This document shows positions 54,278 to 55,276 of a DNA stretch of 64,000 nt, piece after piece. Position 1 is the first letter of the stretch. Each line of letters begins with the position of its first letter. Made by a program: the position numbers and the translations under genes. Location of the stretch: IMG/VR virus record IMGVR_UViG_3300032213_001531, positions 32,001 to 96,000 of that record, one strand, 5' to 3'. The notes beneath the pieces were generated by a model that worked only from the letters and a program-made list of their open reading frames with translations, made no database searches and had not been told where the DNA came from. This stretch comes from a virus.

Positions 54278-55276
54278 TTAGCAACCGCCACCATCAAAGC
54301 ATCCTGGGCTTGAGCAAGCTCCACCGCAACAGAACACTGTACAGAAGTTTGGTGAGCAACAGCTAGGAGAACATGATCCTCCGAAGCCATTACATGCTTG
54401 TGCAAAGTAAGGTGGGAAGAATGGGAATGAAGGTGGGAAGAATGGAGGGAAGAATGGTGGGAAGAACGGGAAGAACGGGAAGTAAGGGAAATATGGTGGG
54501 AAGAACGGTGGGAAGAACGGTGGGAAGAAAGGTGGGAAGAACGGGAAGAATGGAGGGAAGAACGGTGGGAAGAATGGAGGGAAGAAAGGTGGGAAGAACG
54601 GGAAGAACGGGAAGAATGGTGGGAAAAATGGCGGGAAGAACGGGAAGAATGGTGGAAAGAATGGGGGAAAGAATGGAGACAAAGTAGTAATAGATCCAGA
54701 TGCAGGAGAAGCAGCGCTTGTACCATTAGCATTAGTTGCTGTAACTGTATAGGTTTGTGAAGTTCCAGCAGTATCTGCAATAACAATTGGAGAAGTAGCA
54801 CCTGTTCCAGAAGTACCGTCAGATCCTGTTACAGTATAACCACTGATTGTCTTTCCACCAGTTGATGGGGCTGAAAAAGCAATTGAGTTTTGATTTACGC
54901 CAGCTGTTGGAGTTGGAGCAGACATGGTTGCAGGAACTGTTGTTGCGGTAATAGAATCTGAAGCAGTTGAGGCTGCTGAAGTTCCAGCAGCATTGCTTGC
55001 TGTTACAGTAAATGTATATGCAGTAGCAGACTGAAGTCCAGCTACAGTAATTGGAGAAGATGAACCAGTTCCAGTAAATCCTCCAGGACTAGATGTTACA
55101 GTATAAGAAGTTGCTGCTGGAGATAGCGCAGGTAAAGAAAAAGATACTGTTGCAGCACCATTATTAAAGGCTCTTCCAGTTCCAACATCTGTTGCTGTTG
55201 CTCCTGTTGGTGCCAATGGCTCTAAAAAGTCATTTGATGCTTGTGACTTCTTACCTATTCTCTTACCTGATGCCAT
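54278..55276 (-). CDS. Two FN3-like domains + 91-aa PPFF repeat + 10-Cys C-terminal domain (putative virion adhesin A)
   Basis: AATVSF...SYTVTS...GL....YTFTVTASNAAG.S (twice), P/F tract, C-terminal ACNGFGGSCSPSCCSPNFCTVFCCGGACSSPGCFDGGGC; AGGAG RBS. Confidence 0.85.
   Translation of the reverse strand: MASGKRIGKKSQASNDFLEPLAPTGATATDVGTGRAFNNGAATVSFSLPALSPAATSYTVTSSPGGFTGTGSSSPITVAGLQSATAYTFTVTASNAAGTSAASTASDSITATTVPATMSAPTPTAGVNQNSIAFSAPSTGGKTISGYTVTGSDGTSGTGATSPIVIADTAGTSQTYTVTATNANGTSAASPASGSITTLSPFFPPFFPPFFPFFPPFFPPFFPFFPFFPPFFPPFFPPFFPPFFPFFPPFFPPFFPPFFPPYFPYFPFFPFFPPFFPPFFPPSFPFFPPYFAQACNGFGGSCSPSCCSPNFCTVFCCGGACSSPGCFDGGGC
54404..54676 (-). repeat. Imperfect 12/9-nt tandem repeat encoding PPFF/PFF
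   Basis: Plus strand gaagaa(t/c)gg(t/a)gg units. Confidence 0.95.

What the first reader, a model, noticed from the sequence alone, without database searches (positions are those of the whole stretch)
54278..54397. Shared 10-Cys knottin-like tip on both PPFF proteins
Seen: both proteins end in C-x3-GG-x-C-x2/3-CC-x3-FCT-x-FCCG-x2-CS-x-PGCFDGG-x-C-stop (second copy about 62354-62470), while their N-terminal domains are unrelated. Known: C-C-CC-C spacing recalls inhibitor-cystine-knot toxins, and the cytoplasm where phages assemble is normally reducing. Inference: either a five-disulfide mini-domain that oxidises after lysis or a multi-metal cluster, displayed at the end of the PPFF stalk as a receptor-binding or effector tip. 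The similarity suggests duplication or exchange between the two loci.
Basis: partly seen in the sequence, partly recalled or inferred. Interest (0 to 1): 0.72.

Follow-up and report, generated by a model that had tools for sequence, protein, structure and literature searches.

The report
Swappable ten-cysteine cap on phage fibres
Two tail-module proteins of an uncultured actinobacterial phage end in the same small ten-cysteine domain. It is one of at least 26 interchangeable even-cysteine caps carried by a large, undescribed family of Pro-Phe-stalk proteins, most likely a disulfide-locked tip that recombination swaps between phages.

Summary
P0001 (window 54278-55276, minus strand) and P0002 (62354-63415, minus strand) both end in a 38-39 residue domain with the framework C-x6-C-x2/3-CC-x4-C-x3-CC-x3-C-x4-C-x5-C-stop. 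The two tips are 66% identical, and their alignment score lies 12.6 SD above composition-preserving shuffles.

Orthologues in two metagenomes keep all ten Cys, with more synonymous than non-synonymous codon changes. The tip matches nothing in Pfam or PDB sequences, in 1.84 billion representative proteins, or in 185,579 prokaryote genomes.

What is new is the context. The phage is a ~105 kb actinophage (WhiB gene; Streptomyces-phage-like portal). Both proteins belong to a family of thousands of metagenomic proteins with this layout: a conserved N-terminus (Fn3 or PASTA-like), a Pro-Phe stalk, and a variable C-terminus.

Phages whose flanks are 90-93% identical in DNA carry unrelated tips. At the P0002 locus, homology resumes exactly at the stop codon. 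Cys counts are even in 34 of 35 module families, which favours disulfides over metal clusters.

Structure prediction failed for the tip (pLDDT about 50), so the knottin fold is untested. The proposed role as a distal adhesion cassette is inferred, not shown. The same finding was noted elsewhere in this scan only on this same genome.

The parts
54281..54397 (-). Tip A: 39-aa, 10-Cys C-terminal mini-domain of P0001 (stop codon at 54278-54280)
   Evidence: orthologue in L007 is 89.7% identical in nt with all Cys kept
54404..54676 (-). 91-residue Pro-Phe (PFFPPFF) stalk of P0001
   Evidence: AF2 pLDDT 52-61 with no helix or strand
54677..55276 (-). P0001 N-terminal part: conserved N-terminal peptide (predicted helix at residues 10-17) and two Fn3 domains
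   Evidence: Pfam fn3 E=2e-8, 34.8 bits against a cut-off of 25; AF2 pLDDT >90 for about residues 20-200; K5, G8, S11, F17 and P20 are nearly invariant in 59 homologues
55310..57694 (-). Tail-fibre gene directly upstream of P0001, ending in a '...GDLTA' C-terminal domain
   Evidence: Tail-fibre PHROGs and Pfam Mtd_N; its C-terminal domain is 45% identical (E=1e-21) to that of the fibre upstream of P0002
62357..62470 (-). Tip B: 38-aa, 10-Cys C-terminal mini-domain of P0002 (stop codon at 62354-62356)
   Evidence: orthologue in L004/L008 is 83.3% identical in nt with all Cys kept
62627..62755 (-). Internal 43-aa, 4-Cys module of P0002 between Pro-Phe spacers; by eye its Cys spacing resembles a 4-Cys module that is terminal in relatives (P0007, L009, L010)
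   Evidence: The resemblance is by inspection of the pattern CT..D..C...GEC....G.(P/S)C. The clustering treated terminal and internal modules separately, so it did not test this
62354..63415 (-). P0002, 353 aa: PASTA-like N-terminus, Pro-Phe spacers, a 94-aa globular module, the 4-Cys module, and the 10-Cys tip
63423..63998 (-). C-terminal part of the second fibre gene (it runs off the window), ending '...GDLTA', 7 bp upstream of P0002
62305..62346 (.). Bidirectional terminator-like hairpin just after the P0002 stop. This is the 3' boundary at which homology with tip-swapped relatives resumes

Best explanation
The 10-Cys segment is a small C-terminal cap domain that folds on its own. It most likely carries five disulfides, formed once the virion leaves the reducing cytoplasm. 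It sits at the distal end of a Pro-Phe stalk on two accessory proteins of the tail-fibre module of a ~105 kb actinophage. Each protein is encoded directly after a fibre gene with a homologous '...GDLTA' C-terminal domain. Each is probably docked through its conserved N-terminus, which would leave the tip exposed. The tip is one cassette out of a large repertoire of unrelated even-Cys mini-domains. Recombination swaps these cassettes, using the conserved N-terminal/Pro-Phe coding sequence on one side and the gene end on the other. The most likely role is an exchangeable host-surface adhesion or specificity module. Shown here: homology of the two tips, purifying selection on them, cassette replacement, the even-Cys rule, and the gene context. 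Inferred: virion location, which end is distal, the disulfide state, and binding.
For: The tips are homologous, z = 12.6. Codon changes between orthologues are 6 synonymous to 2 non-synonymous (tip A) and 10 to 4 (tip B), with all Cys kept and TGT/TGC interchanged. The genes lie in a tail-fibre module. Each PF gene sits 7-33 bp after a fibre gene with a homologous C-terminal domain, and the same fibre + PF pair recurs in relatives whose PF N-terminus is only 38-40% identical to P0002's. The first ~95 residues are nearly invariant in eight proteins that carry five different tips. DNA homology of 90-93% with L009, L010 and L011 stops inside the P0002 gene and resumes at win 62346 or 62357, that is, at the stop codon. 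At the P0001 locus, homology with L010 ends at the last Pro-Phe codon, 54405. Cys counts are even in 26 of 27 terminal and 8 of 8 internal module families; the single odd case is a truncated Hint domain. The tip has no CxC motif, only one CxxC (in tip B), and four invariant Phe. Structural disulfides in a freshwater phage tail have a precedent in cyanophage Pam3 (PMC9942802). By my own recollection of Fraser et al. 2006 (not checked here), Fn3/Ig-like domains on phages are nearly always on virion proteins.
Against: There is no direct evidence that either protein is in the virion. No structure is available: AF2 gave pLDDT 50.6 for the tip alone and <50 within the full-length model, and Foldseek found nothing. 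Many family members have no tip at all, or a Hint-like domain instead, so the core function of the family does not need a Cys cap. Some caps are only 10-16 aa long (CPECTKGCPC), which is too small for a binding domain and looks more like a staple. An even Cys count per chain is also what an all-paired inter-chain knot in a trimer would require. The genome encodes no recognisable thiol oxidase.
Confidence: 0.45

Rival explanations
1. Structural staple. The Cys-rich cap forms inter-chain disulfides that hold two or three Pro-Phe stalks in register and cross-link them, like the C-terminal cystine knot of type III collagen. It would have no role in recognition.
For: The smallest caps in the family are 10-16 aa with 4 Cys. 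4-Cys modules also occur at intervals inside stalks. Even Cys counts per chain fit an all-paired trimer. A 91-residue Pro-Phe rod with exposed Phe would be expected to bundle (inference). Pam3 uses inter-subunit disulfides in its tail.
Against: A purely structural staple should be conserved. Instead it is replaced by unrelated sequences in phages whose flanks are 90-93% identical. Many stalks of the same length have no cap at all. The oligomeric state is unknown.
Confidence: 0.22
2. Metal-thiolate cluster. The ten Cys bind Zn, Cu or Cd as in a metallothionein-like knob, which could fold in the reducing cytoplasm.
For: The tip is 26% Cys, has CC doublets and no His, and is assembled in a reducing cytoplasm. 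A small Cys-rich DUF6171 protein is encoded two genes downstream.
Against: There is no CxC motif and only one CxxC, and there are four invariant Phe. From my own knowledge, metallothioneins are poor in aromatic residues. Sister caps have 4-Cys spacings such as C-x13-C-x5-C-x9-C, which do not look like zinc knuckles. No Pfam metal-binding family matches.
Confidence: 0.1
3. The tip is not a displayed virion part. It could instead be a processed or tailored peptide, either a substrate of the adjacent 2OG-oxygenase cluster or an effector released from the stalk, or the protein could be a fibre-assembly factor that is absent from mature particles.
For: Seven 2OG-Fe(II) oxygenase genes, a DUF6065 gene and an SDR gene lie directly downstream of P0001. 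Many family members carry a Hint-like domain at the same position; Hint domains are self-cleaving elsewhere (my own knowledge), though cleavage was not tested here. From my own knowledge, genes just after fibre genes are often assembly chaperones.
Against: No protease or leader-like features are recognisable. P0002 has the same tip but no adjacent oxygenases. From my own knowledge, chaperones are usually conserved and Cys-poor.
Confidence: 0.13

Closest known systems
T2/S16-type gp38 tail-fibre adhesin with exchangeable hypervariable segments
   Same: It is a separate gene directly downstream of the fibre gene. The attachment part is conserved. The recognition parts are variable and bounded by conserved repeat motifs (Gly-rich in gp38, Pro-Phe here) that can serve as recombination sites. 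Both show mosaic exchange between close relatives (the gp38 features are from my own knowledge plus the mention in PMC9942802).
   Different: There is no sequence similarity (no PHROG hit). The spacer is Pro-Phe, not glycine-rich PGII. The variable parts are whole disulfide-rich mini-domains rather than loops. The host is an actinobacterium. No binding has been shown.
Inhibitor cystine knot (knottin) peptides and conotoxin framework VI/VII
   Same: The first six Cys follow C-C-CC-C-C. The domain is small, rich in Gly and Ser, and has exposed aromatic residues.
   Different: There are ten Cys rather than six. Loop 2 of tip B (2 residues) and loop 5 of both tips (3 residues) fall outside the usual ICK ranges as I recall them. 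There is no match to any Pfam toxin or knottin family or to any PDB sequence. The fold and the disulfide connectivity are unknown.
Hevein / CBM18-type chitin-binding mini-domains (lead from memory only)
   Same: Both are 30-43 aa, Gly-rich and multi-disulfide, with a CC doublet followed by aromatic residues. The proposed target, a GlcNAc-containing cell wall, would suit a Gram-positive host.
   Different: There is no Pfam Chitin_bind_1 hit even at E<=10. The Cys number and spacing differ. No structure is available. This is purely a hypothesis to test.
Disulfide-linked tail fibres of freshwater cyanophage Pam3
   Same: It shows that virions of a freshwater phage can rely on disulfides in tail and fibre parts although they assemble in the cytoplasm (PMC9942802).
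   Different: In Pam3, single Cys residues link the fibre to the baseplate. There is no Cys-rich terminal mini-domain, no Pro-Phe stalk and no homology.

Membership tests
Knottin / inhibitor cystine knot | Six-Cys framework C-C-CC-C-C with loop lengths in the consensus ranges | tested here: inconclusive
   The loops are A 6,3,0,4,3 and B 6,2,0,4,3. The framework is present, but loop 2 of B and loop 5 of both are shorter than the usual minimum (ranges from my own knowledge). Four further Cys follow.
Knottin / inhibitor cystine knot | Disulfide connectivity I-IV, II-V, III-VI, with the third bond threading the ring | not testable with these tools
   This needs an experimental structure or disulfide mapping. 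The AF2 model of the tip has pLDDT 50.6.
Knottin / inhibitor cystine knot | Profile or fold similarity to a known knottin or toxin family | tested here: not met
   At E<=10, Pfam gives only Keratin_B2_2 (E=0.072). The PDB profile search gives only a nanobody at E=2.9. Foldseek finds 0 matches, on a low-confidence model.
Metallothionein-like metal cluster | Dense CxC/CxxC motifs and scarcity of aromatic residues | tested here: not met
   There is no CxC. One CxxC occurs in tip B only. Four Phe are invariant.
Phage fibre-associated adhesin (gp38-like in function, not homology) | Gene directly downstream of a fibre gene; conserved N-terminal part; variable C-terminal part exchanged between relatives | tested here: met
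Phage fibre-associated adhesin (gp38-like in function, not homology) | Presence in the virion and binding to a host receptor | not testable with these tools
   No cultured relative was found: there were no hits in 50,697 deposited phage genomes.
Fibronectin type III domain (P0001 N-terminal part) | Pfam PF00041 score above the gathering cut-off, and a beta-sandwich fold | tested here: met
   34.8 bits against a cut-off of 25. AF2 gives pLDDT >90 and all-beta structure for about residues 20-200.
PASTA domain (P0002 N-terminus) | Pfam PF03793 score above the gathering cut-off | tested here: inconclusive
   22.3 bits against a cut-off of 23.2 for P0002. Many homologues carry a precomputed PF03793 hit, and P0067 scores 25.4 bits.

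The most novel reading that the evidence does not exclude
Pro-Phe-stalk proteins are a previously undescribed class of phage appendage in uncultured actinophages. They would be rigid, possibly prolyl-hydroxylated Pro-Phe rods docked on a fibre, and their free ends would carry interchangeable micro-domains: at least 26 unrelated disulfide knots, Hint-like domains, or nothing. These ends would act as host-range cassettes. The 10-Cys tip would then be a new five-disulfide fold that recognises an actinobacterial cell-wall glycan.
Probability: 0.3. Interest if true: 0.8.

Novelty: new variant of a known kind. Interest (0 to 1): 0.6.

Why it matters
Low-GC aquatic Actinobacteria are among the most abundant freshwater bacteria. 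Their phages have only recently been cultured (PMC10202952), and their receptor-binding machinery is unknown. This locus shows a mosaic system that can be followed in sequence data. Near-identical phages differ by whole C-terminal micro-domains, bounded by Pro-Phe repeats and the stop codon. That pattern is what host-range cassettes would look like, so tip types could be counted directly in metagenomes to follow phage-host arms races. The tips are also a pool of very small, probably disulfide-locked folds with no known relatives, which would interest structural biologists and designers of binders. If the caps turn out to be structural staples instead, they would still be an unusual way to stabilise a non-collagen proline-rich fibre.

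Tried and rejected
Searches that found no further copies of the tip:
- An HMM of three tips against 1.84 billion representative proteins gave 0 hits at E<=1e-3. The window's own proteins did not appear either, so the library or HMMER's bias filter may hide such sequences. This is weak negative evidence.
- The word-indexed search with the tip region found no candidates.
- tblastn and megablast against deposited phage genomes found nothing for the tip, either N-terminus or the whole region.
- The search for related loci with the tip alignment found pattern hits, but none was confirmed by tblastn.
- Degenerate DNA motifs found only L004 in IMG/VR, L007 and L008 in JGI metagenomes, and nothing in GTDB genomes. 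L005 and L006 were out-of-frame chance hits inside a tape-measure gene.
- A motif for the 8-Cys sister tip found nothing in IMG/VR.
- A motif using only the Cys framework returned 120+ loci, all (TGY)n simple repeats, so it was uninformative.

Structure and annotation attempts that led nowhere:
- AF2 of the tip with a 4-sequence alignment gave pLDDT 50.6.
- Foldseek against PDB gave 0 matches.
- The ESM Atlas gave no usable neighbours.

Tools and ideas dropped:
- Rejected idea: 'the two PF proteins of one phage always carry matched tips'. L010 carries two different 4-Cys tips.
- Rejected idea: recent gene conversion between the two loci. Tip DNA identity is only 62-66%.
- No Erv1-type thiol oxidase is encoded. 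There is only an 87-aa thioredoxin-fold gene, at genome 19109-19351.

Full report
1. THE OBSERVATION

The window is G000:C1:32001-96000 of a 104,993-bp IMG/VR virus record that CheckV rates 97% complete. Tip A is 39 aa (54281-54397) and tip B is 38 aa (62357-62470).

The tips align with one gap. They are 66% identical, and all ten Cys are in register. The Cys framework is C-x6-C-x2/3-CC-x4-C-x3-CC-x3-C-x4-C-x5-C-stop.

Because the composition is extreme, I tested the match against 5000 shuffles of tip B. The observed score was 159, against 51.5 +/- 8.5 for the shuffles (maximum 92), giving z = 12.6. BLASTP finds nothing significant between the two proteins outside the Pro-Phe run and the tip. 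No other ORF in the genome has Pro-Phe repeats or this tip.

2. IS THE TIP CONSERVED, AND HOW WIDESPREAD IS IT?

Degenerate DNA motifs found three further copies:
- L004 (IMG/VR) and L008 (JGI metagenome Ga0209107), which are the same syntenic orthologue of P0002.
- L007 (also Ga0209107), a syntenic orthologue of the P0001 end.

All ten Cys are kept in every copy. Codon changes between orthologues are 6 synonymous to 2 non-synonymous for tip A, and 10 to 4 for tip B. Cys codons switch between TGT and TGC. The peptide is therefore under purifying selection.

Tips A and B are only 62-66% identical in DNA, whereas each tip is 83-90% identical to its own orthologue. The sharing between the two loci is therefore older than the split of these phages. 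It is not a recent conversion.

Nothing else was found:
- 0 hits for a tip HMM in 1.84 billion representative proteins. The window's own proteins were not returned either, so this negative is weak.
- No candidate in the word-indexed search.
- 0 hits in 185,579 prokaryote genomes with the motif.
- No hit in deposited phage genomes.
- No Pfam family at E<=10 apart from Keratin_B2_2 at E=0.072, and no PDB sequence apart from a nanobody at E=2.9.

3. WHAT THE TWO PROTEINS ARE

The genes sit in a tail-fibre module.
- The gene at 55310-57694 has Pfam Mtd_N and many tail-fibre PHROG hits.
- The gene at 58235-59971 matches a virion structural protein family.
- The fragment at 63423-63998 matches the C-terminal parts of tail-fibre and minor-tail PHROG families.

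Each Pro-Phe (PF) gene starts 7-33 bp after a fibre gene. The two fibres end in homologous '...GDLTA' domains, 45% identical with E=1e-21.

In more distant phages (L012-L014), whose PF N-terminus is only 38-40% identical to P0002's, the PF gene again overlaps the end of a fibre gene that ends '...GDL[EST]A'. The fibre + PF gene pair is therefore a conserved unit.

P0001 has two Fn3 domains: Pfam E=2e-8, and AF2 pLDDT >90 for residues ~20-200. A 91-residue Pro-Phe run follows, for which AF2 predicts neither helix nor strand (pLDDT 52-61). The tip comes last (pLDDT <50).

P0002 has a PASTA-like N-terminus, at 22.3 bits against a cut-off of 23.2 (homologues pass the cut-off). After it, globular modules are separated by Pro-Phe spacers.

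The phage is an actinophage. Its portal is 46-50% identical to those of large Streptomyces phages. The genome has a WhiB gene above the Pfam cut-off, a marker used for actinophages (PMC10202952, PMC6802176). With 36.5% GC, the host is probably a low-GC aquatic actinobacterium. That last step is inference.

4. THE FAMILY AND ITS ENDS

P0002 retrieved 86 homologues. P0001 retrieved 2,738 at E<=1e-3 among the 8,000 candidates scored. Almost all are unnamed metagenomic proteins, several of them on contigs of 95-116 kb. One is called 'Fibronectin type III [uncultured Caudovirales phage]'. None of the ten I looked up carries an informative name.

The layout is constant: a conserved N-terminus (an ~82-aa PASTA-like part, or an Fn3 part with a nearly invariant first 20 residues), Pro-Phe stretches of 7 to 122 residues, optional globular beads, and a variable C-terminus.

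The C-termini fall into three kinds:
- Nothing, or a short basic/aromatic tail.
- A ~155-195 aa Hint/intein-like domain that begins with Cys directly after the stalk and ends in HN[KR]. The Pfam matches are below threshold.
- Small Cys-rich modules of 10-76 aa.

After clustering, 26 of 27 terminal and 8 of 8 internal Cys-module families have an even number of Cys (2, 4, 6, 8 or 10). The single odd case is a truncated Hint domain. Equal odds of odd and even would give 34 of 35 with a probability of about 1e-9. That points to fully paired cysteines, meaning disulfides.

The 10-Cys tip is one of the rarest types. No other example appeared among the ~230 proteins I fetched.

5. THE TIP IS A CASSETTE

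Eight proteins whose first ~95 residues are nearly invariant carry five different ends:
- the 10-Cys tip (window, L008);
- two different 4-Cys tips (P0003 and P0005; P0007 and L010);
- a 6-Cys tip (L011);
- an 8-Cys tip (P0009).

In DNA, the window and the IMG/VR contigs L009, L010 and L011 are 90-93% identical across the upstream fibre gene and the 5' part of the PF gene. Homology then stops, at win ~62837 or ~63113. It resumes at win 62346 or 62357, that is, at the stop codon, just before a terminator hairpin at 62305-62346.

At the P0001 locus, homology with L010 (82%) ends at 54405, the last Pro-Phe codon. L010 continues from there with an unrelated 4-Cys tip.

By eye, the Cys spacing of modules that are terminal in one protein resembles that of modules that are internal in another. 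The 4-Cys bead of P0002 resembles the tip of P0007/L010, and the 4-Cys bead of L008 resembles the tip of P0023. I did not test this formally.

In L010 the two PF proteins carry different tips. Matched tips, as in this window, are therefore not a rule.

6. HOW IT MOST LIKELY WORKS

I commit to the following model, at about 45% confidence. The conserved N-terminus docks each PF protein on the virion, probably on the '...GDLTA' domain of the fibre encoded just upstream. The Pro-Phe stretch acts as an extended spacer. The Cys-rich cap is the free, distal end. It becomes locked by five disulfides once the particle is released into oxic water, and it serves as an exchangeable adhesion or specificity module.

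The reasoning has three parts. A docking site must stay constant when its partner stays constant, and it is the N-terminus that stays constant while the C-terminus changes. From general knowledge of phage biology, module replacement between otherwise near-identical phages is what host-recognition parts typically show. Four invariant Phe on a tiny cross-linked scaffold would suit glycan or surface binding, which is inference.

Structural disulfides in a freshwater phage tail have a precedent in Pam3 (PMC9942802).

Shown: homology, purifying selection, cassette exchange, the even-Cys rule, and the gene context. Inferred: virion location, orientation, redox state, and binding.

7. RIVALS

(a) Inter-chain staple for bundled stalks, about 22%. 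It is supported by the very small caps (10-16 aa, 4 Cys) and by internal Cys modules. It also fits the even-Cys rule if the fibre is a trimer. It does not explain why staples are swapped between near-identical phages or are absent from many stalks.

(b) Metal cluster, about 10%. The tip has no CxC, one CxxC and four conserved Phe, and the sister caps do not look like zinc knuckles.

(c) Not a displayed virion part, about 13%. The tip could be a tailored or released peptide, or the protein an assembly factor. Seven 2OG-Fe(II) oxygenase genes, a DUF6065 gene and an SDR gene lie next to P0001, and Hint-like ends are common in the family. However, P0002 has the same tip with no such neighbours.

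8. COMPARISON WITH KNOWN SYSTEMS

In function, the closest analogue is the gp38-type adhesin of T2/S16-like phages. It is a separate gene after the fibre gene, and its variable recognition parts are bounded by conserved repeat motifs. There is no homology with it (no PHROG hit), and the variable units here are whole mini-domains.

The knottin resemblance is limited to the C-C-CC-C-C start of the framework. The profile and fold tests were negative or unusable, and the disulfide connectivity cannot be tested here. I therefore do not file the tip as a knottin. A hevein-like glycan-binding knob is a lead from memory only, with no Pfam support.

9. VERDICT

The tip itself is a rare new module. The more interesting result is the large, undescribed Pro-Phe-stalk family with interchangeable even-Cys caps. 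I rate novelty as a new variant of a known kind (modular fibre-associated adhesins) and interest at 0.6.

The tip could not be folded with confidence.

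Noticed in passing
Proteins P0056, P0067, P0136, P0148, P0176 and about 60 others (family members, not in the window): About a third of the fetched Pro-Phe-stalk proteins end in a ~155-195 aa Hint/intein-like domain. It starts with Cys directly after the stalk (...PYFxxC[VLI]xxDT[LM][IV]LT) and ends ...HN[KR]. Pfam Intein_splicing matches are only sub-threshold. This suggests self-cleavage or ligation at the stalk's C-terminus.
   Followed up: partly
window 46940-53576 (-); also L012 11445-12101 and L013 3322-3978: Seven PF13640-type 2OG-Fe(II) oxygenase genes, a DUF6065 gene and an SDR gene lie directly downstream of P0001. 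An ORF that looks like a 2OG oxygenase by its sequence motif (not confirmed by Pfam) also lies ~1 kb downstream of the PF gene in the distant relatives L012 and L013. This fits enzymatic tailoring of the Pro-Phe stalk, for example prolyl hydroxylation.
   Followed up: partly
window 55310-55620 (-) and 63423-63730 (-); L010, L012-L014: Both PF genes follow fibre genes that end in a homologous ~100-aa domain finishing '...GDLTA' (45% identical, E=1e-21). The fibre + PF two-gene unit recurs in relatives whose PF N-terminus is only 38-40% identical to P0002's.
   Followed up: yes
G000:C1:16527-16700 (-), outside the window: There is a WhiB-family gene (46.6 bits, above the cut-off). Together with a portal 46-50% identical to those of large Streptomyces phages, it marks this 36.5% GC, 105-kb virus as an actinophage, probably of a low-GC aquatic host.
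   Followed up: partly
window 53590-53856 (-) and 53876-54220 (-); L007 32-662: A 114-aa protein with no family match and an 88-aa Cys-rich DUF6171 protein follow P0001. They are syntenic in the orthologous fragment L007. They may be partners (chaperone or redox) of the tip or the stalk.
   Followed up: no
Protein P0125 (family member): One family member has Cys built into the repeat itself (FCPFFPNFCP...), giving 10 Cys spread along the stalk end rather than in a compact cap.
   Followed up: no
window 61749-62297 (+): An SLT_3 lysozyme-like gene with a hydrophobic N-terminus converges on P0002 and shares a bidirectional terminator hairpin with it (62305-62346).
   Followed up: partly
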